A stretch of 64,000 nucleotides of DNA from Salmonella phage vB_SenS-3. Where the stretch lies: sequence record OR896822.1, one strand, 5' to 3'. Each line of letters starts with the position of its first letter. Position 1 is the stretch's first letter. Both the position numbers and the translations under genes were made by a program. Under the pieces are notes generated by a model. It saw only the letters and a list, made by a program, of their open reading frames with translations, was not told the DNA's origin and ran no database searches. Positions 19,058 to 33,045 of the stretch are shown in pieces.

Positions 19058-19068
19058 TAAGGAAATAT

Positions 19069-20046: not shown

Positions 20047-20082
20047 TTCCTTCGAGAGCGCGGGCTTTTCTGTATTTAAGGC
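20047..20082 (+). terminator. rho-independent terminator
   Basis: GCCCGCG...CGCGGGC stem followed by TTTTCTGTATTT. Confidence 0.6.
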
Positions 20083-20217
20083 AAAAGAAAAAGCCCATAA
20101 GTTATTCAACTAAGGTCTTTAGTATTTAATTCTTTAGAATCATATACTATTATTGCAGCAACAACGTGCTAACCTTAAGTGCCCTGCGATTTTCCTCTAA
20201 AAAGTTAAAAAATTCGA

Positions 20218-20246
20218 TTGCTTGAATGCTAAATTCTCTGTATAAT
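20218..20246 (+). promoter_or_regulatory. early-type promoter (TTGCTT N17 TATAAT)
   Basis: Upstream of nadR-pnuC. Confidence 0.55.
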
Positions 20247-20276
20247 ATATTTATAAATTTGAGAGAGGAATCAAAT

Positions 20277-21332: not shown

Positions 21333-21333
21333 T

Positions 21334-21990: not shown

Positions 21991-22018
21991 TTTGTACGCG
22001 TTAACAAATAAAGTAGTT

Positions 22019-22040
22019 ATAGCCCTCGCTTAGAGGGCTA
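22019..22040 (+). terminator. hairpin terminator candidate
   Basis: TAGCCCTC GCTTA GAGGGCTA stem-loop after pnuC. Confidence 0.5.
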
Positions 22041-22058
22041 TTATACAGAAATTTTCAC

Positions 22059-22087
22059 TTGCTTAATATAGAAAATTTCTGTATAAT
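22059..22087 (+). promoter_or_regulatory. early-type promoter (TTGCTT N17 TATAAT)
   Basis: Same architecture. Confidence 0.55.
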
Positions 22088-22117
22088 ATATTTATAAATT
22101 TGAGAGAGGAATCAAAT

Positions 22118-22414
22118 ATGAAACGCATTGTACTTGCATTGACTCTAGTATCTACTTCTGTATTTGCTGCTCCACAACAGGAACTTTGTCAAGTTCAAGT
22201 TTGTAATAAGCTAGAACGATTTACTCTAGACATTTGGTCCCACATTAAAGATAATATGGGTGAACAGTGTTTTGATATTGTTCTGCCAAAAGAACAAGCT
22301 GTTCCTGGGGCTGTTCTCAGCTCAGAATCACGTTGGTGGCAAGGTTCTTCTATCAACCCAACTAAGAAGTCAGTGACACGTATCAAACAAGTATATCAGT
22401 GCAACGTTCAGTAA
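22118..22414 (+). CDS. hypothetical secreted protein
   Basis: Signal peptide MKRIVLALTLVSTSVFAAP; Cys-containing. Confidence 0.45.
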   Translation: MKRIVLALTLVSTSVFAAPQQELCQVQVCNKLERFTLDIWSHIKDNMGEQCFDIVLPKEQAVPGAVLSSESRWWQGSSINPTKKSVTRIKQVYQCNVQ

Positions 22415-22422
22415 AATTTCAC

Positions 22423-22451
22423 TTGCTTAATGCCTAAATTTTCTGTATAAT
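22423..22451 (+). promoter_or_regulatory. early-type promoter (TTGCTT N17 TATAAT)
   Basis: Upstream of HNH gene and tRNAs. Confidence 0.55.
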
Positions 22452-22484
22452 ATATTCATAAATTTGGAAGATTAGGAACTATTT

Positions 22485-22994
22485 ATGTTAGACTATGAGT
22501 CTATACTTTATAGATTCCGTTTAGAAGATGGTGTACTGGTGTGGAATCCGCTCTCCGGAAACTCCAGAGAGGAGAAGATATTTAATACTAAGTTTGCCAA
22601 TAAACCTGCGGGATCTTTGCACAAAAGCTCTGGGTATATCAGAGTTAACGTTGATCACCAAGATTACTTAGCTCATATCATAGTATTTATACTATATTAT
22701 GGGTATAGGCCGGAAATGGTTGATCATAAAGACTGCAATAAGTTAAATATACATCCTTTAAATTTAAGAGCAGCGGATAGTACCACTAATACTCATAATG
22801 CTAGTAAATCTTCTAGGAATACTAGCGGATTTAAGGGAGTATCCTACCACAAAGCATCTGGTCAGTGGCAGGGTAGAATAATGTTTAAAGGTAAGTCATA
22901 CTCCGCAGGGCTGCACAGTACTCCTGAAGCAGCAAATGAAGCTCTAATTCAACTGAGAGAGAAACTTCATGGGGAATATGCCCGAAATAATTAA
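22485..22994 (+). CDS. HNH homing endonuclease with AP2-like domain
   Basis: VDHKDCNKLN HNH motif and FKGVSYHKASGQWQGRI AP2-like segment; paralog of the 17125 gene. Confidence 0.7.
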   Translation: MLDYESILYRFRLEDGVLVWNPLSGNSREEKIFNTKFANKPAGSLHKSSGYIRVNVDHQDYLAHIIVFILYYGYRPEMVDHKDCNKLNIHPLNLRAADSTTNTHNASKSSRNTSGFKGVSYHKASGQWQGRIMFKGKSYSAGLHSTPEAANEALIQLREKLHGEYARNN

Positions 22995-23083
22995 GGAAGA
23001 ATAGCATAACGGTATTGCAGCAGATTGCTAATCTGTCGGTTTGAAACATAGCCTTGTGGGTTCGATTCCCACTTCTTCCGCCA
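22995..23083 (+). tRNA. tRNA-Ser (anticodon GCT)
   Basis: Acceptor GGAAGAA/TTCTTCC, long variable arm, anticodon loop TTGCTAA, T-loop TTCGATT, CCA. Confidence 0.7.
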
Positions 23084-23088
23084 AATTT

Positions 23089-23166
23089 GGTTCTCAAGCT
23101 CATTTGGTATGAGCCGTCGCCTCATAAGCGAAAGGTAGGTAGGTTCGAATCCTCCGGGAGCCACCA
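23089..23166 (+). tRNA. tRNA-Met/Ile2 type (anticodon CAT)
   Basis: Acceptor with two G-U pairs, anticodon loop CTCATAA, T-loop TTCGAAT, CCA; one T-stem mismatch. Confidence 0.5.
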
Positions 23167-23315
23167 GATAACTAGGAGACTTTATGTCACGCTTTCACGA
23201 AATTAAGCAAGAACTAGAAGAATGTATGTGTACTGAATGTTGGGGTTCTGGCACTTAATGTTCCAGTGACTGGATTCCCTGATTGGCTGCAAGGTTACGA
23301 ACTCTAACAAAATTT

Positions 23316-23401
23316 GGATCTGTGGTGGAATTGGCAATACACACCATGCTTAAAACGTGGCGCTTAAATGATTGAGGGTTCGAGCCCCTCCAGATCCACC
23401 A
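23316..23401 (+). tRNA. tRNA-Leu (anticodon TAA)
   Basis: Acceptor GGATCTG/CAGATCC, anticodon loop CTTAAAA, long variable arm, T-loop TTCGAGC, CCA. Confidence 0.65.
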
Positions 23402-23417
23402 AATTAAGGAAGTAAAA

Positions 23418-23552
23418 ATGAAATCTATTAAGAAAGCTATTCGTGAACTTATCCGTTGTCGCTTCCATAGCATCAAGGCTTCAACTAATGGTACTACTTA
23501 CGATCGCTACGATCGCTATGATCCTAAGTTTGGCTTACATTCTAAATAACTG
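23418..23552 (+). CDS. hypothetical small basic protein
   Basis: 44-codon ORF with AAGGAAG RBS directly after tRNA-Leu; not in ORF track (below 60 aa). Confidence 0.25.
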
Positions 23553-23562
23553 GAGAAAACAA

Positions 23563-23769
23563 ATGGCTAATCCTGAAATTACGGCACAACGTTTTATGCT
23601 GAAAGGAATTATTGCTGAAGCAGGCGTGACACAAGAAGTGGAAGATTTCCATAAGCAGTTCCTAAATATTCTCACTCAAGCCAAAGAGCTAGGAGAGAAA
23701 GAACATGGCGCGGCTATTATGGCAATCACATTGGTTGGGCTTGATCTGGCAGAAGAATCAGGAGTTTAA
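23563..23769 (+). CDS. hypothetical protein
   Basis: ATG with GGAG RBS inside track ORF 23443..23769. Confidence 0.3.
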   Translation: MANPEITAQRFMLKGIIAEAGVTQEVEDFHKQFLNILTQAKELGEKEHGAAIMAITLVGLDLAEESGV

Positions 23770-23798
23770 CTTCTCCAAGCAGAAATTTTAAAAATGTA

Positions 23799-23829
23799 CT
23801 TGCTTTTTACTTAAGATTTCTGCTATAAT
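23799..23829 (+). promoter_or_regulatory. early-type promoter (TTGCTT, TATAAT, 19-bp spacer)
   Basis: Slightly long spacer. Confidence 0.4.
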
Positions 23830-23858
23830 AGTTATATAAGTTGATGAGAGGAATCAGA

Positions 23859-24134
23859 ATGTTAAAACGTTTTGCAGCAACTGGTATTGAAAGCTCAGTA
23901 TGTAAATCCTGGGGTGGTTGGGAAGGTGAGATCGAGTGGCTTTATTTCTACAATGTAGAACTTCTTCCAGAGATCAAAGCTCAATGTATTAAGGCTGGTA
24001 TGGCTCCTGATGCTACGGCTGATGTTGAAATCAGCATGAATAAGCTAGAGGGTCGAGTAGTCACTGTTACTGATGAAGGTGAAGAGGTATTCGAACTTCC
24101 ATTCACTTTGAAAGTCACTCCTTCATTTGATTAA
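23859..24134 (+). CDS. hypothetical protein
   Basis: 92 aa; promoter at 23799. Confidence 0.45.
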   Translation: MLKRFAATGIESSVCKSWGGWEGEIEWLYFYNVELLPEIKAQCIKAGMAPDATADVEISMNKLEGRVVTVTDEGEEVFELPFTLKVTPSFD

Positions 24135-24142
24135 CTGATACA

Positions 24143-24183
24143 GCACTTGAGCAAGTTCTTTAAAATTTGACTTGCTCAAGTGC
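24143..24183 (+). promoter_or_regulatory. 13-bp inverted repeat overlapping the -35 of a promoter (candidate operator)
   Basis: GCACTTGAGCAAG ... CTTGCTCAAGTGC flanking TTGACT -35; TATAAT at 24196. Confidence 0.45.
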
Positions 24184-24325
24184 CTTAAAACTTGATATAA
24201 TAGTTACCTAATTTGGAAACATATCTGAATGAGAAGTAATTAAGCGAGTTGCTTTGAGGGATAAAGTCAGGATAGCCGGAAATATTCCACCTTGAGTTTA
24301 ACCGACTTACTTTTCATTCAAATAT

Positions 24326-24406
24326 GGGGGATTGGCTCAGTGGCGACGGCGCCTGGCTGTAGACCGGGTATATCACGCGGAGGTTCGAGTCCTCCATCCC
24401 CCACCA
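24326..24406 (+). tRNA. tRNA-Tyr (anticodon GTA)
   Basis: Acceptor GGGGGAT/ATCCCCC, anticodon loop CTGTAGA, T-loop TTCGAGT, CCA. Confidence 0.6.
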
Positions 24407-24414
24407 AAATTAAT

Positions 24415-24489
24415 GCACCTATCGTCTAATGGTTAGGACATCAGGATTTCAATCTGAGAATTGAACTCCGATTCTCCGTGGGTGTGCCA
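24415..24489 (+). tRNA. tRNA-Glu-like element (anticodon TTC), aberrant T-arm, possible pseudogene
   Basis: D-arm TCGTCTAATGGTTAGGACA and anticodon loop ATTTCAA look Glu-like; T-arm region forms a 6-bp stem with 9-nt loop instead of canonical T-arm. Confidence 0.35.
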
Positions 24490-24498
24490 ATTAATAAT

Positions 24499-24569
24499 TG
24501 GGGTACGCATAGGTTGCTAGTGGGCCTCCAAAACCCATGAAAAGGTTTCGAATACCTTTACCCCTGCCA
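24499..24569 (+). tRNA. tRNA-Trp (anticodon CCA), weak D-arm
   Basis: Anticodon loop CTCCAAA, T-arm AAGGT TTCGAAT ACCTT, acceptor 6/7 pairs, CCA. Confidence 0.5.
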
Positions 24570-24575
24570 ATATTT

Positions 24576-24650
24576 GCACCTTTAGCTGAGATGGATTAGC
24601 GCTTGCCTGAAGAGCTTGAGAGGTTCGTTCAATTCGAACAGGGTGCACCA
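24576..24650 (+). tRNA. tRNA-Phe-like element (GAA loop) with disrupted anticodon stem
   Basis: Perfect acceptor and T-arm (GTTCG TTCAATT CGAAC), loop CTGAAGA, but flanking CTTGC/GCTTG cannot pair. Confidence 0.4.
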
Positions 24651-24667
24651 ATTTGAAGGAGATGCTG

Positions 24668-24940
24668 ATGCATCCTGAAAACTTCTTTATATACTGTACT
24701 AGTCCTTTGCTTAAACGCCGGATTAATAAAGTATATCACTACAGAGCTAGTCAACAGCCTTATGTTTATGATTCTAGTGGAGATCATATTCCACTTGAGC
24801 AACTAGGGACTGATTATATGGTTTTGAAGCACTTTAATGAGGCGAAGATCTCTAGCGTTCATAACCGACAAAACTCTAAAACGTGGTGGCATAAGAAGCG
24901 TAAGAAAGGCATCAAATTTCTTAAAAATGTAGTTGCTTAA
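24668..24940 (+). CDS. hypothetical basic protein
   Basis: AAGGAG RBS, ATG 24668; 3' end overlaps next promoter. Confidence 0.35.
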   Translation: MHPENFFIYCTSPLLKRRINKVYHYRASQQPYVYDSSGDHIPLEQLGTDYMVLKHFNEAKISSVHNRQNSKTWWHKKRKKGIKFLKNVVA

Positions 24941-24961
24941 ATCCTTAAAGTTCTGTATAAT
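24933..24961 (+). promoter_or_regulatory. early-type promoter (TTGCTT N17 TATAAT)
   Basis: Same architecture. Confidence 0.55.
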
Positions 24962-24989
24962 TATTACATAAATTGAACTGGAGAACTAG

Positions 24990-25178
24990 ATGAAAGCACC
25001 TAAACCGAAATTAGTTAAGTTCGACTGCTGTGATACTGAAATCTTATTTACTAAGTTTGGTGAATTTAAGATGTGTGAATGTGGAACATGTGGTTACGAT
25101 CATGGTGATGGATATTATTGCAGAACCCTAGGGCCTTCTGAACTAATCCACTTCTCATGGCCGGAAAGTAAAGAATAA
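24990..25178 (+). CDS. hypothetical Cys-rich small protein
   Basis: 62 aa with CC..C.C..C..C pattern (possible zinc ribbon). Confidence 0.4.
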   Translation: MKAPKPKLVKFDCCDTEILFTKFGEFKMCECGTCGYDHGDGYYCRTLGPSELIHFSWPESKE

Positions 25179-25180
25179 TA

Positions 25181-25256
25181 CGACCGTTGGCTGAATGGCT
25201 TAGGCGGAGGCCTGCAAAACCTCCTTATGTGAGTTCGAATCTCATGCGGTCGTCCA
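25181..25256 (+). tRNA. tRNA-Cys (anticodon GCA)
   Basis: Anticodon loop CTGCAAA, T-loop TTCGAAT, discriminator T, CCA; 5' base C. Confidence 0.5.
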
Positions 25257-25408
25257 ATTTGCTGAAAGAATTGTTAAATCAATTCAGGCACGCGTAGGAA
25301 CACTGCCTCAGTAATTGAAAGATGAGGCACGGTTTGGAGAGGTATGCCGCTACACGCTACGGTGCTAACTCCGTCTAGGTGAAAATCCTAGTCAGCAATA
25401 TAAATTTA

Positions 25409-25491
25409 GGGTCGTTAGCCAAGCGGTTTGGCGGTGGACTGTTAATCCATGTCGAAAGACAACGTAGGTTCGAATCCTACACGGCCCGCCA
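25409..25491 (+). tRNA. tRNA with anticodon GTT (Asn), atypically long variable region
   Basis: Acceptor GGGTCGT/ACGGCCC, anticodon loop CTGTTAA, T-loop TTCGAAT, CCA. Confidence 0.45.
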
Positions 25492-25594
25492 TATTCTATG
25501 TAGGATTAAGTAAACCGGTAGCCAACCAGCTATCATTACTGATATCGAATTCAGTCACAGATACCATTTTTCACTAACAACTGAGGAAATAGAT

Positions 25595-25780
25595 ATGACA
25601 ACTCGTGCAATTGCTCGACTAGAAGCTGATCGTGATAATCTGATTAATAATATTAAGGTTCGTGGTAATATTATTAAGGCTCTGAAAGCTGAACTTCTTG
25701 AAGAACTTCAAGGTCAAGTAGAGCGTCGTGAAGCTCTAAAAGAGGTTGAGGAAGCTATCGAAAAACTCAAGGCTGAATAA
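25595..25780 (+). CDS. hypothetical coiled-coil protein
   Basis: 61-aa ORF. Confidence 0.4.
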   Translation: MTTRAIARLEADRDNLINNIKVRGNIIKALKAELLEELQGQVERREALKEVEEAIEKLKAE

Positions 25781-25783
25781 ATT

Positions 25784-26365
25784 ATGCACGGAATATCCTT
25801 ACCCATTCCAGGGTTTGAGGAGTACTTAGTAAGTTTGGATGGGTTAGTATTTAGTATCAAATCAAACAAAATACTAACCCCAATAACCAGTAATTACGGA
25901 TACTTATCTATACGTCTCCATAAAAATGGTCAACAGAGAAATACCGGTGTACATAGGATTTTAGCATGTGCATTTAAGAAATTACCAAGTCTAGACTCTG
26001 AACTAGAAGTTGACCATATTAACACAGACATTACTTATTGGGGTCTTAATAACTTACAAGTGCTCACAAAAGAGCAGCATCTAGAAAAGACTTTAAAAGA
26101 TAAAGGATTTAGTAAACTAAACCATGATAATTGTTGTAAGGATTGTGGTAAAGCTATTTCTTTAAAAGCTGAAAAATGTCAGGAGTGCTCTTCACATAAA
26201 CCAAAAGATATCTCTATAACTAAAGAAATAATCGAGGTTACAGTAAGAGAGCTAGGCTGGTCAGGTGCAGGGAGAAAGTTAAATTATTCAGATAATGGGT
26301 TGCGTAAAAGATACACTTCTTTAGGAGGCAATCCTAAAGAACTTAAAAAGTTAAAGGTACTATAG
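25784..26365 (+). CDS. HNH endonuclease (NUMOD-like N-terminus, Cys-rich C-terminus)
   Basis: EVDHINTDITYWGLNNLQVLTKEQH HNH motif; CCKDCGKA..C.EC zinc-finger-like tail; 3' end overlaps tRNA-Asp 5' end. Confidence 0.6.
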   Translation: MHGISLPIPGFEEYLVSLDGLVFSIKSNKILTPITSNYGYLSIRLHKNGQQRNTGVHRILACAFKKLPSLDSELEVDHINTDITYWGLNNLQVLTKEQHLEKTLKDKGFSKLNHDNCCKDCGKAISLKAEKCQECSSHKPKDISITKEIIEVTVRELGWSGAGRKLNYSDNGLRKRYTSLGGNPKELKKLKVL

Positions 26366-26430
26366 TCTAACGGTTAGGATACTCCCCTGTCACGGGAGAG
26401 GTAGGGTTTCGATTACCCTTAGTACCGCCA
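26356..26430 (+). tRNA. tRNA-Asp (anticodon GTC)
   Basis: Acceptor GGTACTA/TAGTACC, anticodon loop CTGTCAC, T-loop TTCGATT, CCA. Confidence 0.7.
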
Positions 26431-26436
26431 AATTAT

Positions 26437-26513
26437 ACATCCATAGCTCAACTGGTCAGAGCTACCGCCTCTTAAGCGGAGGGTTGAAGGTTCAAGTCCT
26501 TCTGGGAGTACCA
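26437..26513 (+). tRNA. tRNA-Lys (anticodon CTT)
   Basis: Anticodon loop CTCTTAA, T-arm GAAGG TTCAAGT CCTTC, acceptor 6/7 pairs, CCA. Confidence 0.5.
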
Positions 26514-26715
26514 AACAAATAGAGTAAAGGCTACAGTAGGTGCACCCTTACGGACTGCTACACCGGACTCTATTCATTAACAAACATTCTAGCGTGGTGG
26601 AGAGGGGACACCAGCTGTGCGAGGGTAGAAGCTTGTTCGATTCAAGTGAAAGAATGGTTCTCGTAAATCCGCAGCAGTGATAGTAGGTTCAAGTCCTACC
26701 TAGATTGACTTATTA

Positions 26716-26790
26716 TGCGTTCGTAGTTAAAAGGTATAATTTTTGGTTGCCAACCAGAAGTTGAGGGTTCGATTCCCTCCGACCGCACCA
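26716..26790 (+). tRNA. tRNA-Gly (anticodon GCC)
   Basis: Anticodon loop TTGCCAA, T-arm GAGGG TTCGATT CCCTC, acceptor 6/7, CCA. Confidence 0.55.
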
Positions 26791-27041
26791 AATTTAGGTT
26801 TCTGCTTCCTAGAGAACGGACTCCTAGATAAACAAGGCGATGAGTTTCCGGCCGGTTCTAGTCGCTGAAAATCCTCCCGACCAGGTAGGTGTAGGTAAAC
26901 GAAAGTTTACTTATTGAGTAGGTTCCGATAGATCGGCGGATCTATTCTGGCATTTAAGAGAAGTCTCGCAAACTTCTTTGTCAGCAGAGCGTTTGAAGCG
27001 TGAGGTGGCCTACACAATAAGTAAATTTATTAAAAACTCAT

Positions 27042-27070
27042 TTGCTATTTCACTTAATTCTCTTTATAAT
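27042..27070 (+). promoter_or_regulatory. early-type promoter (TTGCTA N17 TATAAT) driving tRNA operon
   Basis: tRNA-Pro begins 33 nt downstream. Confidence 0.55.
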
Positions 27071-27102
27071 ATATCTTATAAAGTGAGTTAACAAAGAATA
27101 TT

Positions 27103-27180
27103 CTCCGTGTAGCTCAGTTTGGCCAGAGCGTTCCGTTTGGGGCGGTAGGGTCGGGGGTTCAAATCCTCCCACGGAGACCA
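27103..27180 (+). tRNA. tRNA-Pro (anticodon TGG)
   Basis: Acceptor CTCCGTG/CACGGAG, anticodon loop TTTGGGG, T-loop TTCAAAT, CCA. Confidence 0.6.
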
Positions 27181-27186
27181 AACAAT

Positions 27187-27264
27187 TGCGGGTTAGATCT
27201 CTGGTAGAGATCGCTAGTCTCATAAGCTAGAAAGAGGTAGGTTAGATTCCTACACCCGCTTCCA
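27187..27264 (+). tRNA. tRNA-Met (anticodon CAT)
   Basis: D-stem GATC/GATC, anticodon arm CTAGT CTCATAA GCTAG, T-loop TTAGATT, CCA. Confidence 0.55.
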
Positions 27265-27283
27265 ATTTAATAGAGGATACGAA

Positions 27284-27447
27284 ATGAAATTATTTCGATT
27301 GGTAGTAAGTGATAGACGGTCTAGCAAAGATCGTTCGAAGTATACCTTAGCCCATTATGGGAAAGATGAAAATGAAGTAATGGCTGAATTTGGTATTAAT
27401 CATCGCTACTTAGAAGTTTACTCTATTAAGGAAGTTTATCCGTATTA
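27284..27447 (+). CDS. hypothetical small protein
   Basis: 54-codon ORF between tRNAs with AGAGGA RBS. Confidence 0.3.
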
Positions 27448-27448
27448 A

Positions 27449-27526
27449 GGGTCGTTAGCTCAATTGGTTAGTAGCACTTGCCTTTTAAGCAATAGGTTGA
27501 AGGTTCGAGTCCTTCACGACCCACCA
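27449..27526 (+). tRNA. tRNA-Lys (anticodon TTT)
   Basis: Acceptor GGGTCGT/ACGACCC, anticodon loop CTTTTAA, T-arm GAAGG TTCGAGT CCTTC, CCA. Confidence 0.65.
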
Positions 27527-27535
27527 AATTACTTT

Positions 27536-27609
27536 GCTCGGTTAGTTTAATGGGAGAACCCCGTCTTTACACGGCGGTTGCGATAGTTCGATTCTATCAC
27601 CGAGTACCA
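27536..27609 (+). tRNA. tRNA-Val (anticodon TAC)
   Basis: Anticodon arm CCGTC TTTACAC GGCGG, T-arm GATAG TTCGATT CTATC, CCA. Confidence 0.6.
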
Positions 27610-27634
27610 ATTAACTCAAAATAAGGAATTGCAA

Positions 27635-27988
27635 ATGCAATTATCAAGCAAGATTCAAGGCTATTTTGGTCATGTAACAATGGAGTTCGCTATCTCTAAA
27701 GGTTGGGATTTCGAGCAAGATCTAGCTGAGTTCTACAAAGATATTGATCTGAACGTACCATACATGGGACTCTCCACTGGTCAAGAGATCACAGAAGGCG
27801 ATGTGTTCAAGGCAAGTCAAGGTGAGGTAACACCTAGTTTTGCCAAGTTCTGGTTAGGACTTACTTTGAAGGAAGATGCACCAGAGGATGGTGTGGTTAT
27901 GCAGAGTATGCACTCTGGAAGCTCTGATTACCTTTTCGTTAGCGACGTTAAGGAACTACAAGAAATCGCTAAAAATGTACTTGCTTGA
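27635..27988 (+). CDS. hypothetical protein
   Basis: ATG 27635 after AAGGA RBS. Confidence 0.45.
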   Translation: MQLSSKIQGYFGHVTMEFAISKGWDFEQDLAEFYKDIDLNVPYMGLSTGQEITEGDVFKASQGEVTPSFAKFWLGLTLKEDAPEDGVVMQSMHSGSSDYLFVSDVKELQEIAKNVLA

Positions 27989-28009
27989 TGCTTAATTTCT
28001 TGTTATAAT
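27981..28009 (+). promoter_or_regulatory. early-type promoter (TTGCTT N17 TATAAT) driving 250-nt leader plus tRNAs
   Basis: No ORF for 260 nt downstream, then tRNA-Ala pair. Confidence 0.55.
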
Positions 28010-28271
28010 ATTTATATAAATTGATGAGGAGAAATCCTCATCAAAGTTCACTAAGGTATTAGCTCGACCTAGGGCTGGCTGCCAAAAAGCACAATTGCAA
28101 TTAGACCCCTAATGGCGGGGGATACTTTGCAATAAGTTCTAGATTAGTCCACTAGATTCAGTGGCAACTGAATAGTGTATCGGGTTTGTGAAGAGCGGTT
28201 ATCCTCTACTGGCTAATGTCTGAGGGTAATACGCACACCGAGCTAATAGCCTTAGTAAACTTAAAGATTTT

Positions 28272-28350
28272 GGGGAATGGGTCTGCTTGGAGTGGACACC
28301 TCGCTTGCACCGAGGATATCAGAAGAGTTCGAATCTCTTATTCTCCACCA
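28272..28350 (+). tRNA. tRNA-Ala (anticodon TGC), copy 1
   Basis: G3:U70 pair in acceptor, anticodon arm CCTCG CTTGCAC CGAGG, T-loop TTCGAAT, CCA. Confidence 0.55.
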
Positions 28351-28355
28351 AATTC

Positions 28356-28431
28356 GGGGTCATAGGTTATTTGGTTAAACTTACTGCCTTGCAAGCAGTG
28401 GAACTCAGTTCAATTCTGAGTGACTCCACCA
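28356..28431 (+). tRNA. tRNA-Ala (anticodon TGC), copy 2
   Basis: G3:U70 pair, anticodon arm ACTGC CTTGCAA GCAGT, T-arm CTCAG TTCAATT CTGAG, CCA. Confidence 0.6.
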
Positions 28432-28450
28432 AACAAATTAAGGAAATAAT

Positions 28451-28669
28451 ATGGTATTCTTAGCAGCCTCTGTAGTTCTTGCAGCTTTAGCACTAGCTAT
28501 CTATTTTAGAACTATTAAAGATTTAGCTAAAGAAAAGAAAACTTTCTTTACTGATTATTCTTGGGGCGCTCCATATAACGTCCGCTTTATCAGCTTAGAA
28601 GCTATGCTGATAATGGTATTCAGTGGCATAGGTTCCATTGTTGCAGGGTTACTATTTATTTCTAACTAA
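28451..28669 (+). CDS. hypothetical membrane protein
   Basis: 72 aa, two hydrophobic helices. Confidence 0.4.
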   Translation: MVFLAASVVLAALALAIYFRTIKDLAKEKKTFFTDYSWGAPYNVRFISLEAMLIMVFSGIGSIVAGLLFISN

Positions 28670-28685
28670 ATAAAATGGGGATGTG

Positions 28686-28766
28686 GCGAAATTGGCAGAC
28701 GCGCTAGATTTAGGTTCTAGTCTTCGGGTGTGGGTTCGAGTCCCTCCATCCCTACCAAACATTGGA
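28686..28766 (+). tRNA. tRNA-Leu (anticodon TAG)
   Basis: D-arm GGCGAAATTGGCAGACGC, anticodon arm CTAGA TTTAGGT TCTAG, long variable arm, CCA. Confidence 0.7.
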
Positions 28767-28782
28767 TTAACTCATGATGAAA

Positions 28783-28950
28783 ACTCCTATAACTGATATC
28801 TGGTTAGCTGTTAATACATCAACTAAAGAGTATGTGTTTATAGAGTATGGTCAGAGGTATGACCAAAAGATGTATAATCTCATACTTCCAGTATCTGCTA
28901 ATGAAGTTTATGATTTAATCCTGAGATCTACGGAAGAGCAAATCGATTAG
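28783..28950 (+). CDS. hypothetical small protein
   Basis: 55-codon ORF between tRNAs; 3' end overlaps next tRNA candidate. Confidence 0.25.
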   Translation, partial: TPITDIWLAVNTSTKEYVFIEYGQRYDQKMYNLILPVSANEVYDLILRSTEEQID

Positions 28951-29024
28951 GTGACGAAAACCGCTTGGAAAGTGGCTGACTTGTTAAAGCAGGCTTGAGA
29001 ATTCGAATCTCTCTTCTTCCGCCA
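28932..29024 (+). tRNA. class II tRNA, tentatively tRNA-Ser (anticodon GGA)
   Basis: Acceptor GGAAGAG/TTCTTCC, T-loop TTCGAAT, CCA; anticodon arm assignment uncertain. Confidence 0.4.
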
Positions 29025-29045
29025 AACAACTAATAGGGAATATAA

Positions 29046-29288
29046 ATGAAAGTCAAGATTATGATGTTGGATTTAGCTAATGATAAGTTTTTCTTGCGTC
29101 ATACATTCCCTAGTAAGCAAGCTTTAGAGTTTCATATCAAGTACGCAATAGGCATGAAACTTCCTGAGCGAGAAATATTTGATAAAGCATGTGATACTGG
29201 AGTTATTTATGTATGGCAAACAACCTATCATGATAATCCAGAAGATCTTCGAAAAGAAGTAGAACAAATACTAGAAGATAGGACGTAG
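29046..29288 (+). CDS. hypothetical protein
   Basis: 80-aa ORF; 3' end overlaps tRNA-Ser(TGA) 5' end. Confidence 0.4.
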   Translation: MKVKIMMLDLANDKFFLRHTFPSKQALEFHIKYAIGMKLPEREIFDKACDTGVIYVWQTTYHDNPEDLRKEVEQILEDRT

Positions 29289-29362
29289 TGGTATGTAACC
29301 GGTCTTGAAAACCGGCCCGCTGTAGTGATACGGTGATGGTTCGACTCCATTATCTTCTGCCA
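29273..29362 (+). tRNA. tRNA-Ser (anticodon TGA)
   Basis: Acceptor AGAAGAT/ATCTTCT, perfect anticodon arm CCGGT CTTGAAA ACCGG, long variable arm, T-loop TTCGACT, CCA. Confidence 0.6.
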
Positions 29363-29687
29363 AATCTTGAAGTATGCCGGAATCGGTAGACGGGGCTTCC
29401 TAAAGGGCGTAAGGGGAACATCCACTCCTCATAAGATACCCGAAAACGAGGCTGAGATAACTGGTCTATCTCGTGAAGGTTCGAGTCCTTCTGCTTCTTG
29501 ATATTCATCAATGGCTCAAAGTGTAACGGTGCTATTTGATGCTCTTAGTAAGACTTTCCCGACATGCGTTCGGGAGTAAGCTGCTAAGGCTAGAGTAGAA
29601 GAGTTTCGGAGAGCCGCCACAATTGAAGTCTTTAGAATGGGTATCGCCCTTTAGCCCCTCCGAAAGGGATAACTAGAGATTTCAATT

Positions 29688-29764
29688 GTGGTTATATCAT
29701 AATTGGTTAATGATCCTGATTGTGAATCAGGCCTATGTGGATTCGAATTCCACTAACCACCCCA
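29688..29764 (+). tRNA. tRNA-His (anticodon GTG)
   Basis: Acceptor GTGGTTA/TAACCAC, anticodon arm CCTGA TTGTGAA TCAGG, T-arm GTGGA TTCGAAT TCCAC, CCA. Confidence 0.7.
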
Positions 29765-29770
29765 AATATT

Positions 29771-29845
29771 GCGTCCTTATTTCAATGGAAAGAATGTAAA
29801 GCTACGAACTTTACGATCGGGGTTCGATTCCCTGAGGATGCACCA
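29771..29845 (+). tRNA. tRNA-Arg (anticodon ACG)
   Basis: Anticodon arm GTAAAG CTACGAA CTTTAC, T-loop TTCGATT, CCA. Confidence 0.65.
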
Positions 29846-29869
29846 ATTAACTTATACAGGAACTAAAAT

Positions 29870-30070
29870 ATGGCTGATTTCTGCAAAGAATGCTCTATCG
29901 ATATGTGGGGCAAAGATACTGGTGATCTTTCTGGTCTGATTACAGAAGCCGAAGTTAAAGAAGGCTATGGTGCTGTTGTAATCTGTGAAGGTTGTGGTAT
30001 TATTCGTGTTGACCATAATGGTAAACGTCTAGAAGAACCAGATCCAATTGCCACGGTTCCTGTAGAATAA
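29870..30070 (+). CDS. hypothetical Cys-containing protein
   Basis: 66 aa; CKEC...CEGC pairs. Confidence 0.4.
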   Translation: MADFCKECSIDMWGKDTGDLSGLITEAEVKEGYGAVVICEGCGIIRVDHNGKRLEEPDPIATVPVE

Positions 30071-30077
30071 AAATTAT

Positions 30078-30153
30078 TGGGATGTAGATCAATTGGCAGA
30101 TCGTCGGCCTCTGACTCCGAAGGTTCCACGTTCGATCCGTGGCATCCCAGCCA
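30078..30153 (+). tRNA. tRNA-Gln (anticodon CTG)
   Basis: 5' U start, D-stem GATC/GATC, anticodon loop CTCTGAC, T-arm CCACG TTCGATC CGTGG, CCA. Confidence 0.65.
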
Positions 30154-30159
30154 AACAAT

Positions 30160-30235
30160 TGGAGAGTAGTGTAACGGTTAGCACAACGGCCTTTGACTCC
30201 GTTAATGGTAGGTTCGATTCCTCCTTCTCCAGCCA
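30160..30235 (+). tRNA. tRNA-Gln (anticodon TTG)
   Basis: Acceptor TGGAGAG/TTCTCCA, anticodon loop CTTTGAC, T-loop TTCGATT, CCA. Confidence 0.6.
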
Positions 30236-30241
30236 ATTTAT

Positions 30242-30316
30242 GCGTGATTAGTTCAGTGGCTAGAATAACTGGCTTCCAACCAGTAGACACGAGTTCGACT
30301 CTCGTATCCCGCACCA
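30242..30316 (+). tRNA. tRNA-Gly (anticodon TCC)
   Basis: Anticodon arm ACTGG CTTCCAA CCAGT, T-arm ACGAG TTCGACT CTCGT, acceptor 6/7, CCA. Confidence 0.65.
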
Positions 30317-30332
30317 AATATAAGGAAACGTT

Positions 30333-30554
30333 ATGGACGTTTTTGAGTTTCGTAATAAAAACCCCAATAGACGAGTTTTAATTATTGGTGAAACATATAG
30401 AGCTTATGAGCAAGAAGATGGTTCGGTTTTATTAAATGATGAAAAACAAGGCTATAGCTTTCATCCAGAAGAAACATATGAAGAATTTCGTACTAAGTTT
30501 CTTTTACCAGACTGGCTAGCAATAGCTGAGCAAAGAGAATCCAAAGATGGCTGA
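30333..30554 (+). CDS. hypothetical protein
   Basis: 73-aa ORF after tRNA-Gly. Confidence 0.4.
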   Translation: MDVFEFRNKNPNRRVLIIGETYRAYEQEDGSVLLNDEKQGYSFHPEETYEEFRTKFLLPDWLAIAEQRESKDG

Positions 30555-30711
30555 TAATCTAAAGCTAAAAGTAGATAAACGAATGAAGTGCGTTGAGGTT
30601 GAGTTGGGTGAAGAACGTTTAAAACTCTCCTTCGAATTCTTACAGCAGTTGGCTATGACAGTAATGTCTGATAAGTCTCCTGTATTTGAAAAAGAAATCC
30701 CGTTGAAATAA
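30547..30711 (+). CDS. hypothetical small protein
   Basis: 54-codon ORF overlapping previous stop; followed by CCCGTTGAAATAACGGG hairpin. Confidence 0.25.
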   Translation: MADNLKLKVDKRMKCVEVELGEERLKLSFEFLQQLAMTVMSDKSPVFEKEIPLK

Positions 30712-30720
30712 CGGGTTTAT
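30698..30720 (+). terminator. hairpin terminator candidate
   Basis: CCCGTT GAAATA ACGGG followed by TTTATT. Confidence 0.5.
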
Positions 30721-30721
30721 T

Positions 30722-30796
30722 GCTCCTAAAGCATTGCTGGCGATGCAGTTGCCTTGTAAGCATCTGAACCGGGTTCGATTCCTGGTGGGAGCACCA
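30722..30796 (+). tRNA. tRNA-Thr (anticodon TGT)
   Basis: Acceptor GCTCCTA/TGGGAGC, anticodon loop CTTGTAA, T-arm CCGGG TTCGATT CCTGG, CCA. Confidence 0.6.
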
Positions 30797-30811
30797 AATT
30801 TAAAAATTCAT

Positions 30812-30840
30812 TTGCCTTCTCTCTTATTTCTTGTTATAAT
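30812..30840 (+). promoter_or_regulatory. early-type promoter (TTGCCT N17 TATAAT)
   Basis: Same architecture. Confidence 0.5.
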
Positions 30841-30870
30841 ATTTATATAAATTAATGAGAGGGAAACCAA

Positions 30871-31164
30871 ATGAAACGTTATCTTTCTGTCGTATTCCAA
30901 ACGGGTGGTCAACGCTACACTTATGAATTTCCTGAGTCCTGGAAAATTAAAGAAGGTGATCAAGTTGTTGTATTAACACCTCGTGAAGGCTTCAAAGTAG
31001 TAACGGTTAAACAAGTATTTCCAAAAGATCACGAACCATCTAAGTCTATTCAGTACAAGATGATTCATGGTCTAGTTCGTAAAGTACCACGAACTGAGGT
31101 AGAAGTAGATAAGACTGGTGAAGCTAAATACCAGTATACTTCTTACTTAGACGAGTTGTTATAA
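30871..31164 (+). CDS. hypothetical protein
   Basis: 97 aa; promoter at 30812. Confidence 0.45.
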   Translation: MKRYLSVVFQTGGQRYTYEFPESWKIKEGDQVVVLTPREGFKVVTVKQVFPKDHEPSKSIQYKMIHGLVRKVPRTEVEVDKTGEAKYQYTSYLDELL

Positions 31165-31370
31165 TGAGAATTACTTTCACAGAAAAGATTATGGGCAATG
31201 GTGTTATGATCATTACCGCATGGGATGGTAATCAGTGGTGTAGTGTTTCAGGTATTAAGCCTGAAGAACAAACACTAGAAAATATCTCAAAGATTAAGCG
31301 AAGAATGGCAGAACGTGCACGACTTCCAGGTGCTCCTAGAAATGGTAAACGTTCTGCAATTAAATGTTAA
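31164..31370 (+). CDS. hypothetical protein
   Basis: 68 aa, ATGA overlap with previous gene. Confidence 0.4.
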   Translation: MRITFTEKIMGNGVMIITAWDGNQWCSVSGIKPEEQTLENISKIKRRMAERARLPGAPRNGKRSAIKC

Positions 31371-31371
31371 T

Positions 31372-31448
31372 GCTTCGGTAGCTTAGCGATCTAAAGCACT
31401 CGGCTGATAACCGAGAGATCGGGGGTTTAAATCCCTCCCGGAGTACCA
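31372..31448 (+). tRNA. tRNA-Ile (anticodon GAT)
   Basis: Anticodon arm CTCGG CTGATAA CCGAG, T-loop TTTAAAT, acceptor with G-U pairs, CCA. Confidence 0.6.
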
Positions 31449-31544
31449 AATTTAGGAAGTAAGACTATGCGTCCAGGAAAGTTTAAAAAAGCTAATTGGT
31501 CTAAAGAGTATAAAGAATACTTACTTAGTCTAGTAAAACATAAT

Positions 31545-31617
31545 AGTTAGTTGGCAGAGAGGTTATGCACCTCCTTCATACGGAGCGCCTACAGTGGTTC
31601 AAATCCACTACTAACTA
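31545..31617 (+). tRNA. tRNA with anticodon CAT (third CAT tRNA), CCA not encoded
   Basis: Acceptor AGTTAGT/ACTAACT, anticodon loop TTCATAC, T-arm AGTGG TTCAAAT CCACT. Confidence 0.45.
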
Positions 31618-31984
31618 CTAAACAGAGGATCAGATCATTGTACCAGATCCTGCTGAGAAGAGAGTCCACATTCTATAAATGGCCGGGCGTGACAGCAGGA
31701 AGTAGACTGCAACTCCATGCTATACAGGAGTATAAATGTAGAAGCTAGGGCTTTAGATAGCCATTGTCTTAGCGTGAGCAATCACGTAGTTGCAACAGAC
31801 CAGGGGATAGCAACGTTAAAATCAAAGCTCCTGTGCTTATTAAACTGAATGGGACTATCAATCCACAAGCCGGACTACGAGCGATTATCGGGTATTCACT
31901 TAATAAGCAAGCCTGCCTTCCAGTTTTTATCTTGCTTCTGGGTTAACAAAAAGCTGAGCCAAATTCTAGCATCAGGGAGATCTA

Positions 31985-32353
31985 ATGAAAGCATATCAAA
32001 GTCTTAAGTCTGGCGTAATTAACCTTGTTCATAACAATCAGATCATTCAACTATATTCTAAAGATGGTGAACTTAAACAGAAAGTTCTAGTCGAAGATCT
32101 AGAAGGTATCACACCTCACTTTGACCCTGAGGCCTTTCGCATTGTAGATGTGGAAGTGATTCCTCAAGTCGAGGGTGGTCAGCACCTAAATGTCAACGTG
32201 TTAAGCCGTGATCAGCTTTTGGATGCACAGAAACATCCTGAAAAATATCCTCAGTTGACCATCCGTGTCTCTGGATATGCTGTTCGATTTAACGCATTGA
32301 CGCGTGAACAACAGAACGACGTTATTAGTCGTACATTTACTCAGGCGATATAA
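31985..32353 (+). CDS. grcA: GrcA/YfiD-like autonomous glycyl-radical cofactor protein
   Basis: 122 aa; C-terminal [25 protein letters not shown] matches glycyl-radical domain fingerprint. Confidence 0.7.
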
Positions 32354-32434
32354 TGGGGTTTGGATATGATTTCTCCCAGCTACGCAAGGTAGTCGAGCAA
32401 ACTCCATTTATCTCCCAAGTTTTAGGAGAAATGT

Positions 32435-32734
32435 GTGGATCGAGCATTAAGACGCCATCACCGGCAACGTGTGAAAAACAATCGCAAAAAGTATTGGACA
32501 GTCTTCCCACATGAAGAAAGTCCTAAGCGGTTAGGCATTATCACTACCACTCCTTGCATCTGTTCTTGTTGGATGTGTGGGAATCCTCGCAAATACTATA
32601 AGAATAGTAAAGCAGGTATGAAAATCTCGGAGATTAAAAAGATGGATGCAATGATTATGGGCATCACCTTTACAGGCGGTATCTCTGATGAATTCGACGG
32701 TTTTGTAACTCAGGATATTGTCGAAATTATCTAA
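32435..32734 (+). CDS. hypothetical Cys-cluster protein
   Basis: GTG start with AGGAG RBS; basic N-terminus, CICSCWMC cluster; not a canonical CxxxCxxC radical-SAM motif. Confidence 0.4.
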   Translation: MDRALRRHHRQRVKNNRKKYWTVFPHEESPKRLGIITTTPCICSCWMCGNPRKYYKNSKAGMKISEIKKMDAMIMGITFTGGISDEFDGFVTQDIVEII

Positions 32735-32743
32735 TTAATAATA

Positions 32744-32778
32744 AACCCCAGCTATTGAATAGGTAGTCTGGGGTTTTC
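32744..32778 (+). terminator. rho-independent terminator
   Basis: AACCCCAG...CTGGGGTTTTC. Confidence 0.6.
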
Positions 32779-32801
32779 TTGTAGTATGTAGGATTTTCGA
32801 A

Positions 32802-32987
32802 ATGAAAATTTTTAAAGTGAACTATAGCGGCCTGTGGTTAGGTGGTACAGCTATTGTCGTTGCAGAAACTGCAGAAGAAGCAATCGAACTGGCTAGAAAC
32901 CATAGAAGTTCTATAGAATTCGAGGATGTGACAGTAGAAGAACTCCCGAGCAGTGGGGTAGTATACAACGACAACGGAGATTACTGA
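32802..32987 (+). CDS. hypothetical protein
   Basis: 61-aa ORF. Confidence 0.35.
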   Translation: MKIFKVNYSGLWLGGTAIVVAETAEEAIELARNHRSSIEFEDVTVEELPSSGVVYNDNGDY

Positions 32988-33045
32988 TGTTATATTTTGA
33001 AGTTCGCCCACATTAAGTTAATTTAAAAGACTTAATGGAGGTAAT

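What the first reader, a model, noticed from the sequence alone, without database searches (positions are those of the whole stretch)
27981..28271. Promoter-driven 260-nt untranslated leader ahead of the tRNA-Ala pair, and similar ORF-free structured spacers in the cluster
The strong promoter at 27981 is followed by an 8-bp hairpin (GATGAGGA..TCCTCATC) and about 230 nt without an ORF before tRNA-Ala. Comparable ORF-free spacers with nested inverted repeats occur at 25257-25408, 26791-27040 and 29500-29687 (an 11-bp repeat CCACAATTGAA/TTCAATTGTGG enclosing a second hairpin just before tRNA-His). These may be small stable RNAs or RNase processing platforms for tRNA maturation.
Basis: seen in the sequence. 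Interest (0 to 1): 0.45.

Follow-up and report, generated by a model that had tools for sequence, protein, structure and literature searches.

The report
T5-type stable RNA before tRNA-Ala
The ORF-free stretch between a phage promoter and the tRNA-Ala genes encodes the counterpart of "RNA 2H", a structured stable RNA of unknown function already annotated in phages T5 and BF23, so it is real but not new.

Summary
The window is a T5-like Salmonella phage; this stretch is 100% identical to phage S113. A T5-type early promoter (TTGCTT-17-TGtTATAAT, 27981-28009) is followed by a 10-bp hairpin and about 230 ORF-free bases before two tRNA-Ala genes.

The stretch is the orthologue of "promoter P13b" plus misc_RNA "RNA 2H, stable RNA with unknown functions" in the T5 st0 and BF23 GenBank records. 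I show that it is a genuine structured RNA:
- It has four internal helices and two conserved unpaired motifs.
- 97% of pair cells are canonical, and 21 of 44 pairs show double compensatory changes across Markadamsvirinae and Klebsiella Sugarlandvirus phages.
- There is one copy per genome and no Rfam family.

The other spacers are orthologues of T5/BF23 RNAIV, RNAI, RNA1, rna2 and rna3. One (25257-25402) is unannotated, tRNA-shaped, and shared with Mydovirus myophages.

Most likely mechanism (inferred): early sigma-70 transcription, then excision at the long helix by RNase III and at the tRNA by RNase P, giving a stable RNA. Its trans function is unknown, and the T5 tRNA region that contains it tolerates deletions in the lab. 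Novelty is low, since the RNA is already annotated. The residual interest is that the RNAs have no known function.

The parts
27981..28009 (+). T5-type early sigma-70 promoter, the orthologue of P13b: -35 TTGCTT, 17-nt spacer, extended -10 TGtTATAAT. An upstream A-tract lies at 27971-27975.
   Evidence: Sequence. 27960-28043 is 90% identical to T5 'promoter P13b', and its first 76 bases are 89% identical to BF23's P13b. It is conserved in all 12 aligned relatives, including Klebsiella phages. The consensus scanner does not list it because the -35 matches at only 3 of 6 positions.
28021..28044 (+). 5'-proximal 10-bp hairpin UUGAUGAGGA-GAAA-UCCUCAUCAA. It buries a Shine-Dalgarno-like GAGGAG.
   Evidence: z = -5.7. 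One relative (L027) has GGGG/CCCC where the window has GAGG/CCUC, a double change. T5 has a one-sided change. The hairpin is absent in Klebsiella phages and is replaced by a ~95-nt insert in the K38-type phages.
28044..28262 (+). RNA 2H-like structured RNA including its full 23-bp closing helix. By analogy with the T5/BF23 annotation, the mature RNA would be about 28057-28252.
   Evidence: blastn to T5 and BF23 rna2H. Covariance model R1 scores 198.6 bits, E = 6e-52, with one copy in the window. MFE -76.2 kcal/mol, z = -4.4. Covariation.
28044..28066 (+). P1 5' strand (AAGUUCACUAAGGUAUUAGCUCG). It pairs with 28239-28262, with a C.A mismatch at bp 6 and a bulged G at 28249.
   Evidence: There are 13 distinct helix variants among about 55 sequences, with double compensatory changes at bp 1, 7, 8, 14, 19, 20 and 21.
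28239..28262 (+). P1 3' strand (CGAGCUAAUA-G-CCUUAGUAAACUU).
28072..28077 (+). P2 5' strand (GGGCUG). It pairs with UAGUCC at 28145-28150.
   Evidence: 100% of cells paired, and 4 of 6 pairs show double changes.
28092..28135 (+). P3, a hairpin of variable length. Its base is UUGC/GCAA, which is UCCC/GGGA in T5. This phage has an extension of about 23-27 nt relative to T5.
   Evidence: in the structure-aware alignment, pairs 48:86 and 49:85 show double changes in 9 sequences.
28157..28172 (+). P4 hairpin, UUCAG-UGGCAA-CUGAA.
   Evidence: Klebsiella phages have ACGC-CUGGUAA-GCGU, which is offset by 1 nt in the alignment. I read this by eye.
28174..28191 (+). Conserved unpaired junction motif AGUGUAUCGGGUUUGUGA. 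A second conserved motif, CCAAAAAGCAC, lies at 28082-28092.
   Evidence: Invariant columns. The motif is unique in the window on both strands.
28195..28234 (+). P5, the 3' hairpin.
   Evidence: 8 of 12 pairs show double changes. The T5-type and Epseptimavirus/Klebsiella-type sequences differ but keep the pairing.
28272..28431 (+). Two tRNA-Ala(tgc) genes transcribed downstream of the RNA.
25257..25402 (+). Spacer A, a tRNA-shaped structured RNA not annotated in T5 or BF23. It has a 7-bp terminal helix and a 5-bp stem with a 7-nt loop in the T-arm position.
   Evidence: z = -3.3. 39 pairs, 12 with double changes. Found in 219 phage records, including Sugarlandvirus, phiR2-01 and Mydovirus VIK251.
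25494..25566 (+). rna3 homologue ('tRNA-like RNA with unknown functions' in BF23).
   Evidence: 90.5% identity to BF23 rna3.
26585..26710 (+). rna2 homologue, a tRNA-like RNA with a 43-nt insertion at the anticodon loop.
   Evidence: (39 pairs, 11 with double changes).
26791..26902 (+). ORF-free spacer with weak evidence of structure.
   Evidence: z = +0.7. Only 4 distinct sequences were available; 4 pairs show double changes (run on 26791-26917).
26903..27028 (+). RNAIV homologue with a 20-bp closing helix. The outer 10 bp of that helix resemble those of RNA 2H.
   Evidence: (z = -5.9).
27042..27070 (+). P13a-type promoter ahead of tRNA-Pro.
29366..29512 (+). RNA1 homologue, a class-II-like tRNA-shaped RNA with a 41-nt insertion at the anticodon loop.
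   Evidence: (39 pairs, 9 with double changes).
29513..29619 (+). RNAI homologue. Its ends form GGCUC/GAGCC followed by GCCA, like a tRNA acceptor end.
   Evidence: z = -2.2.
29617..29691 (+). Hairpin with a 19-bp stem in the position of T5 RNAIII. It is not sequence-homologous to RNAIII. Its arms overlap the CCA end of RNAI and the first 4 nt of tRNA-His.
   Evidence: z = -6.4.

Best explanation
The region is one early transcription module of a T5-like phage tRNA cluster.

Host sigma-70 RNA polymerase starts at a P13b-type promoter. The transcript begins with a small 5' hairpin that buries a vestigial ribosome-binding sequence.

The transcript then forms the orthologue of T5/BF23 'RNA 2H', about 200 nt long. 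A 23-bp helix closes a four-way junction (P1, P2, P4, P5), with a variable hairpin (P3) inside P2 and two conserved unpaired motifs.

I infer that RNase III cuts both strands of the long helix. RNase P then cuts at the 5' end of the next tRNA. This would release a stable, compact RNA and free the tRNA precursors.

The conserved interior means the RNA body is itself under selection. It most likely binds a protein or another RNA in trans. That partner and function are unknown, and the T5 tRNA region that contains it tolerates deletions under laboratory conditions.

Shown here: homology, synteny, promoter conservation, the fold and its covariation.
Inferred: the RNase III/RNase P processing route, stability in this phage, and any trans function.
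For: Identity:
- The window is 100% identical to Salmonella phage S113 over this stretch.
- T5 st0 annotates promoter P13b, then misc_RNA RNA2H (172 nt), then tRNA-Ala at the syntenic place.
- blastn gives 77% identity over 135 nt. The covariance model gives 198.6 bits, with exactly one hit in each T5-like genome where it was found.

Structure:
- Folding z = -4.4 for the window and -4.2 for T5.
- On 31-35 distinct sequences, 97% of pair cells are canonical, against 87% in shuffles and 23-46% with slid partners.
- 21 of 44 pairs carry double changes. The covariation score is 0.31-0.32 against 0.13, exceeded by 0 of 500 shuffles.
- The P3 and P5 hairpins are replaced by different sequences that keep the pairing.
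- The terminal helix is 23 bp in every variant, with 7 covarying pairs.

RNA-like base composition: the spacers are 43-51% G+C, like the tRNAs. The neighbouring ORFs are 31-38%.

Independence from tRNA-Ala: the element is followed by three different tRNA-Ala sequences, by tRNA-Leu(tag) in K38, or by an 87-aa ORF in L046. The promoter is kept in all of them.

Processing:
- The annotated T5/BF23 ends are a 5' U at helix bp 14 and a 3' ...AAUAGCC. This leaves a short 3' overhang (a bulged G plus two nucleotides), the geometry RNase III produces.
- RNAIV has a similar 20-bp helix, a nearly identical outer 10 bp, and an annotated 5' end also 13 nt into the helix.

Accessory status: T5 escaper phages with 0.2-15 kb deletions in the tRNA-rich del-1 region are viable (PMC12483538).
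Against: - There are no expression or end-mapping data for this phage. I could not confirm that the GenBank RNA ends were measured rather than predicted.
- RNase III involvement rests only on helix length and the geometry of the annotated ends.
- The covariation comes mainly from three sequence types: T5-type, Epseptimavirus-type and Klebsiella-type. The number of independent events is therefore small.
- Two alternative helices are also conserved, so part of the interior fold is ambiguous. These are a local hairpin overlapping the P2 3' strand, and GCAACUG/CGGGUUUGY.
- No function can be read from the sequence. There was no Rfam match, no E. coli homologue and no antisense target in the window.
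Confidence: 0.8

Rival explanations
1. The element is only a cis-acting processing and stabilising spacer. The long helix and hairpins exist to give RNase III, RNase P or RNase E defined entry sites and to protect the tRNA precursor. The excised piece has no function of its own.
For: - 19-23 bp terminal helices close three elements of the cluster.
- The elements always lie next to tRNAs.
- The T5 tRNA region tolerates deletions.
Against: - A processing site needs only the closing helix. Here P2, P3 and P5 also covary, and two unpaired motifs of 11 and 18 nt are conserved from Salmonella to Klebsiella phages.
- The BF23 annotators call it a stable RNA.
- It keeps its own promoter even when the downstream gene changes.
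Confidence: 0.15
2. The element is a riboswitch or attenuator-type leader that senses a ligand, a tRNA or a protein and controls transcription of the downstream tRNAs.
For: - It lies directly after a promoter and before the genes.
- It has a multi-helix junction with conserved unpaired nucleotides.
- Two mutually exclusive helices are both conserved.
Against: - No + strand terminator-like site lies between the RNA and the tRNA.
- No riboswitch or T-box family matched, even at E up to 10.
- The closing helix seals the domain off from what follows.
- The downstream gene varies.
Confidence: 0.04
3. The element is a decayed or expanded tRNA gene, like its neighbours rna1, rna2 and rna3.
For: Three or four neighbouring spacers are tRNA-shaped.
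Against: - Neither ARAGORN (with or without the intron option) nor the Rfam tRNA model calls it.
- It has no T-arm-like hairpin next to the 3' strand of the closing helix.
- The closing helix is 23 bp, not 7 bp.
Confidence: 0.01

Closest known systems
RNA 2H (gene rna2H) of phages T5 and BF23: GenBank AY692264.1 and NC_042564.1, 'stable RNA with unknown functions', preceded by promoter P13b
   Same: - The same genomic position: promoter P13b, then the RNA, then tRNA-Ala.
- Alignable sequence (77% identity over 135 nt).
- The same closing helix, P2, P4 and junction motifs.
- One copy per genome.
   Different: - P3 carries an extra stem of about 23-27 nt.
- P5 has a different sequence (Epseptimavirus/Klebsiella type) that keeps the pairing.
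- The homologue in the window's own phage, S113, is not annotated.
T4 species 1 and species 2 stable RNAs (rnaC, rnaD) in the T4 tRNA cluster (from my own knowledge of the T4 literature, not checked here)
   Same: They are small stable RNAs of unknown function, co-transcribed with and processed out of phage tRNA precursors.
   Different: No sequence relationship was tested or is expected. The T4 RNAs are tRNA-like, so they resemble this cluster's rna1/rna2-type RNAs more than RNA 2H.
RNase III processing stems of rRNA operons and T7 early transcripts (established knowledge)
   Same: A duplex of about two helical turns, formed by sequences flanking a structured RNA, with mature ends that leave a short 3' overhang.
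   Different: Cleavage was not shown here. The helix carries a conserved C.A mismatch and a bulged G whose role is unknown.
T5/BF23 RNAIV, RNAI, RNAIII, RNA1, rna2, rna3 (same GenBank records)
   Same: The window's other ORF-free spacers are their orthologues or positional analogues.
   Different: - The hairpin at 29617-29691 occupies the RNAIII position without sequence homology.
- Spacer A (25257-25402) has no annotated counterpart. T5 and BF23 carry an ORF there instead.

Membership tests
T5/BF23 RNA 2H | Sequence homology to the annotated rna2H | tested here: met
   blastn gives 77% identity over 135 nt to T5 and BF23. Covariance model R1 gives 198.6 bits, E = 6e-52.
T5/BF23 RNA 2H | Synteny: directly downstream of promoter P13b and upstream of tRNA-Ala | tested here: met
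   Searches compared. The promoter region is 89-90% identical.
T5/BF23 RNA 2H | Shared secondary structure kept by compensatory changes | tested here: met
T5/BF23 RNA 2H | Accumulates as a discrete stable RNA in infected cells | not testable with these tools
   Only the depositor's note 'stable RNA with unknown functions' is available. No expression data are held.
RNase III processing stem | Duplex of about 20 bp or more | tested here: met
   23 bp with one mismatch and one bulge, conserved in 13 helix variants.
RNase III processing stem | Staggered cleavage leaving a 2-nt 3' overhang | tested here: inconclusive
   The annotated T5/BF23 ends fit: 5' end at bp 14, and a 3' end at G-CC. I could not establish whether those ends were measured.
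tRNA / tRNA-like RNA | Cloverleaf with a 7-bp acceptor stem and a T-arm | tested here: not met
   No call by ARAGORN, with or without introns, or by Rfam tRNA. The neighbours at 25257-25402, 26585-26710 and 29366-29512 do meet it.
Riboswitch or attenuator leader | Aptamer plus an expression platform (terminator or SD-sequestering helix acting on the downstream gene) | tested here: not met
   No + strand terminator-like site lies between 28044 and 28272. No Rfam cis-regulatory hit. The downstream genes are tRNAs.
Sigma-70 promoter (T5 early class) | -35 and -10 hexamers with 16-18 nt spacing | tested here: met
   TTGCTT-17-TATAAT with an extended -10 TG, read directly from the sequence. It is homologous to the annotated P13b. 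It falls below the scanner's -35 threshold.
Any Rfam 15 family | Covariance-model match | tested here: not met
   Only tRNAs matched at E <= 1 across 16000-33000. Only noise matched at E <= 10 on 28010-28275 and 29355-29690.

The most novel reading that the evidence does not exclude
RNA 2H and the other cluster RNAs (RNAIV, RNAI, and the tRNA-shaped spacer A, rna1, rna2 and rna3 with 41-43 nt anticodon-loop insertions) may form a set of trans-acting RNAs made early in infection. They would act as decoys or sponges for host tRNA-targeting defence nucleases or for host RNA-processing or RNA-modifying enzymes. This would fit three observations: the T5 tRNA region that contains them tolerates deletions in a laboratory host, they are conserved across genera, and spacer A occurs in an unrelated phage subfamily.
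Probability: 0.15. Interest if true: 0.75.

Novelty: already known. Interest (0 to 1): 0.3.

Why it matters
Phage T5's non-tRNA stable RNAs have gone without a function since they were first described. Current annotation pipelines ignore them, and they are unannotated in S113 and in most of the relatives' records I fetched. No Rfam family covers them.

The covariation-backed fold, the shared processing helix and the defined phylogenetic range give concrete targets for deletion, pull-down and end-mapping experiments. That work is timely, because phage tRNA clusters are now known to counter tRNA-cleaving defence systems. It would matter more if one of these RNAs turned out to be an anti-defence decoy.

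Tried and rejected
- Rfam scans found only tRNAs, or noise at E up to 10.
- Searching for host homologues of the leader and of spacer A in 5,426 E. coli genomes found none.
- Searching the window for an antisense target of the conserved junction motif found none.
- Looking for further clades with a degenerate pattern in IMG/VR and in the metagenome collection returned only T5-type and Klebsiella-type copies plus chance hits.
- Model R1 found nothing in the stretches I held from a Providencia phage (a replication-gene region) and an Aeromonas Demerecviridae phage (part of its tRNA cluster). Absence from those genomes is therefore not shown.
- Literature searches for the T5 stable RNAs in the open-access library found no paper that describes them. 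The evidence that they are known is therefore the GenBank annotation, plus my memory of 1980s work by Ksenzenko and colleagues, which I could not read.
- Supplementary tables with deletion coordinates for the T5 escaper phages were not held.
- I rejected a coding explanation: there is no ORF, the indels are not in frame, and substitutions are compensatory.
- I rejected a tRNA explanation for the leader.
- I rejected a minus-strand terminator reading of the hairpin. The scanner flags it on the - strand, but every tRNA and annotated gene in this part of the cluster is on the + strand.

Full report
**What the window is.** ARAGORN finds 28 tRNA genes on the + strand between 17.6 and 31.6 kb, and Rfam adds one more at 24415-24486. 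The stretch 27900-28450 is 100% identical to Salmonella phage S113. It matches hundreds of T5-like phages (Demerecviridae) at decreasing identity. The finding therefore lies in the tRNA cluster of a T5-like phage.

**Checking the observation.**
- The promoter is as described: TTGCTT (27981-27986), a 17-nt spacer, TATAAT (28004-28009), a TG two bases before the -10, and an upstream A-tract.
- The consensus scanner does not list it, because the -35 matches TTGACA at only three positions.
- The 84 bases 27960-28043 are 90% identical to T5's annotated 'promoter P13b', and the first 76 are 89% identical to BF23's. Paralogous promoter modules recur through the window.
- The 8-bp hairpin exists and extends to 10 bp (28021-28030 / 28035-28044), with folding z = -5.7.
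- No + strand ORF of 25 aa or more lies between 27996 and 28215.

**Already annotated in relatives.** The T5 st0 record AY692264.1 places promoter P13b, then misc_RNA 'RNA2H' (172 nt), then tRNA-Ala at the syntenic position. It also annotates rna2, RNAIV, RNA1, RNAI and RNAIII in the other gaps.

The BF23 tRNA-region record NC_042564.1 carries the same features with notes:
- 'stable RNA with unknown functions' for RNA 2H, RNAIV, RNAI, RNAIII and a 784-nt RNAX;
- 'tRNA-like RNA with unknown functions' for RNA1, RNA2 and RNA3.

blastn maps these onto the window as follows:

| T5/BF23 RNA | Window coordinates |
|---|---|
| rna3 | 25494-25566 |
| rna2 | 26585-26710 |
| RNAIV | 26918-27016 |
| RNA 2H | from 28057 |
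| RNA1 | 29366-29512 |
| RNAI | 29513-29619 |

RNAIII has no sequence homologue. The hairpin at 29617-29691 sits in its place.

**The leader is a real structured RNA.**
- The window sequence and its T5 homologue fold far better than shuffles (z = -4.4 and -4.2).
- I collected homologues from annotated phage records, IMG/VR and metagenomes and aligned 31 distinct sequences.
- The consensus fold has a terminal helix P1, a long-range helix P2 (GGRCUG/UAGUCC), a hairpin P3 of variable length, a small hairpin P4 and a 3' hairpin P5.
- On this fold, 97% of pair cells are canonical, against 87% after shuffling partners and 23-46% when partners are slid.
- 21 of 44 pairs show changes on both sides. 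The covariation score is 0.31-0.32 against 0.13, and 0 of 500 shuffles reach it.
- P3 and P5 have been replaced by unrelated sequences that keep the pairing.
- Two unpaired motifs, CCAAAAAGCAC and AGUGUAUYG..UUUGYGA, are nearly invariant from Salmonella to Klebsiella phages.
- A covariance model finds exactly one copy in each T5-like genome where it was found, and none elsewhere in the window.
- No Rfam family matches.
- G+C is 43-47% in the RNA, like the tRNAs, against 31-38% in the neighbouring ORFs.

**The closing helix.** It has one C.A mismatch and one bulged G. All 13 helix variants among about 55 sequences keep it, with double changes at seven pairs.

- The annotated T5/BF23 RNA 2H starts at helix bp 14 and ends two paired nucleotides past the bulged G. 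That is a short 3' overhang, as RNase III leaves.
- The RNAIV homologue is closed by a 20-bp helix (z = -5.9). Its outer 10 bp are nearly the same sequence (AAGUUYACUWA / UWAGUAAAYUU), and its annotated 5' end also lies 13 nt into the helix.
- I take this as a shared processing cassette, most likely for RNase III. This is inferred from geometry, not shown.

**Independence from tRNA-Ala.** The promoter-RNA module is followed by three different tRNA-Ala sequences, by tRNA-Leu(tag) in K38, or by an 87-aa ORF in L046. The promoter is kept in all relatives, including Klebsiella phages. There the 5' hairpin is absent and P1 starts a few bases after the likely start site.

The 5' hairpin buries GAGGAG. 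At paralogous promoter modules the same position is a ribosome-binding site followed by ATG (24914-24992). The hairpin may therefore keep ribosomes off a non-coding transcript. This is speculation.

**The other spacers.** All have conserved folds except one.
- RNA1-like and rna2-like are cloverleaf-shaped with 41-43 nt inserted at the anticodon loop (ARAGORN with the intron option). They show 9 and 11 covarying pairs.
- RNAI-like ends in GAGCC-GCCA, like a tRNA acceptor end.
- The stretch 26791-26902 has no thermodynamic signal (z = +0.7) and too few sequences to judge.
- Spacer A (25257-25402) is not annotated in T5 or BF23, which carry an ORF there instead. It is 97-99% identical among T5-like phages, 86-88% identical in Sugarlandvirus and Yersinia phiR2-01, and 80% identical over 85 nt in the tRNA cluster of the myophage VIK251 (Vequintavirinae, Mydovirus).
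- Spacer A's fold has 39 pairs, 12 with double changes. It is tRNA-shaped: a 7-bp terminal helix, and a 5-bp stem with a 7-nt loop abutting the 3' strand.

**Function.** Nothing in the sequence names a function. There is no host homologue and no antisense target in the window. The T5 tRNA-rich del-1 region tolerates 0.2-15 kb deletions in viable phages (PMC12483538). The RNAs are therefore probably accessory in a laboratory host.

Covarying internal helices and conserved junction nucleotides argue that the RNA body has a role beyond offering a cleavage site. A decoy or sponge role against host tRNA-directed defences is attractive but untested.

**Uncertainties.**
- The covariation derives from about three sequence types.
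- Two alternative helices are also conserved.
- A candidate loop contact, UGCC/GGCA, has only one covarying pair.
- The experimental basis of the annotated ends is unknown to me.
- I could not read the original T5 papers.

**Verdict.** The element is an orthologue of an already annotated stable RNA, so novelty is low. The residual interest is that this RNA family has no known function and no curated model.

Noticed in passing
window 25257-25402; L072 2447-2590; L011 6465-6612; L068 9003-9150: A 146-nt tRNA-shaped RNA between tRNA-Cys and tRNA-Asn is not annotated in T5 or BF23. It has a long invariant core (AUGCCGCUACACGCUACGG...GGUGAAAAUCC). It also occurs in the tRNA clusters of Klebsiella Mydovirus myophages (Vequintavirinae), which suggests transfer between phage families.
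   Followed up: partly
window 17608-18237: A G+C-rich (43-50%) stretch of about 630 nt between two ORFs is homologous to parts of BF23 'RNAX', a 784-nt 'stable RNA with unknown functions' (17609-17850 at 80%, 18094-18222 at 72%). It has no Rfam match. It contains the ARAGORN 'tRNA-SeC(tca)' call at 17645-17718, which is therefore probably a tRNA-like part of this RNA and not a selenocysteine tRNA.
   Followed up: partly
window 26585-26710 and 29366-29512: Two tRNA-shaped RNAs, homologues of T5 rna2 and RNA1, carry 43- and 41-nt insertions at the anticodon loop. RNA1-like also has a long variable arm like class II tRNAs. ARAGORN calls them only with the intron option.
   Followed up: partly
window 25494-25566: A homologue of BF23 rna3 ('tRNA-like RNA with unknown functions'), 90.5% identical, lies directly after tRNA-Asn. 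Neither ARAGORN nor Rfam calls it.
   Followed up: no
window 24415-24486: Rfam's tRNA model scores 35.2 bits here (gathering score 29), between tRNA-Tyr and tRNA-Phe. ARAGORN makes no call. Relatives carry tRNA-Glu and tRNA-Trp at this position.
   Followed up: no
window 26903-26922/27009-27028 and 28044-28056/28250-28262: The closing helices of the RNAIV-like and RNA 2H-like RNAs share nearly identical outer segments (AAGUUYACUWA / UWAGUAAAYUU). These are the only two such pairs in the 64-kb window.
   Followed up: partly
L013 4546-4663, L016, L030 (K38-type phages): In these phages the 5' hairpin after promoter P13b is replaced by an insert of about 95 nt (GAUGCGAAAAUAGCUGCC...GGUAUCCAUCAG) ahead of RNA 2H. 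I did not examine its nature.
   Followed up: no
L069 4003-4206 (Klebsiella phage vB_Kpn_3, partial genome): This RNA 2H copy is chimeric. The 5' half is Klebsiella-type and the 3' half is Salmonella/Epseptimavirus-type, so the closing helix is largely broken. It is either a recombinant or an assembly artefact in a record with sequencing gaps.
   Followed up: no
window 25784-26365: A 193-aa ORF ends inside the start of tRNA-Asp (26356). In relatives, homing-endonuclease ORFs overlap tRNA genes in the same way (T5p062, T5p059; 'putative homing endonuclease' in DaisyDussoix).
   Followed up: no
In the precursor transcript, this hairpin would hold those two ends together.
   Followed up: no
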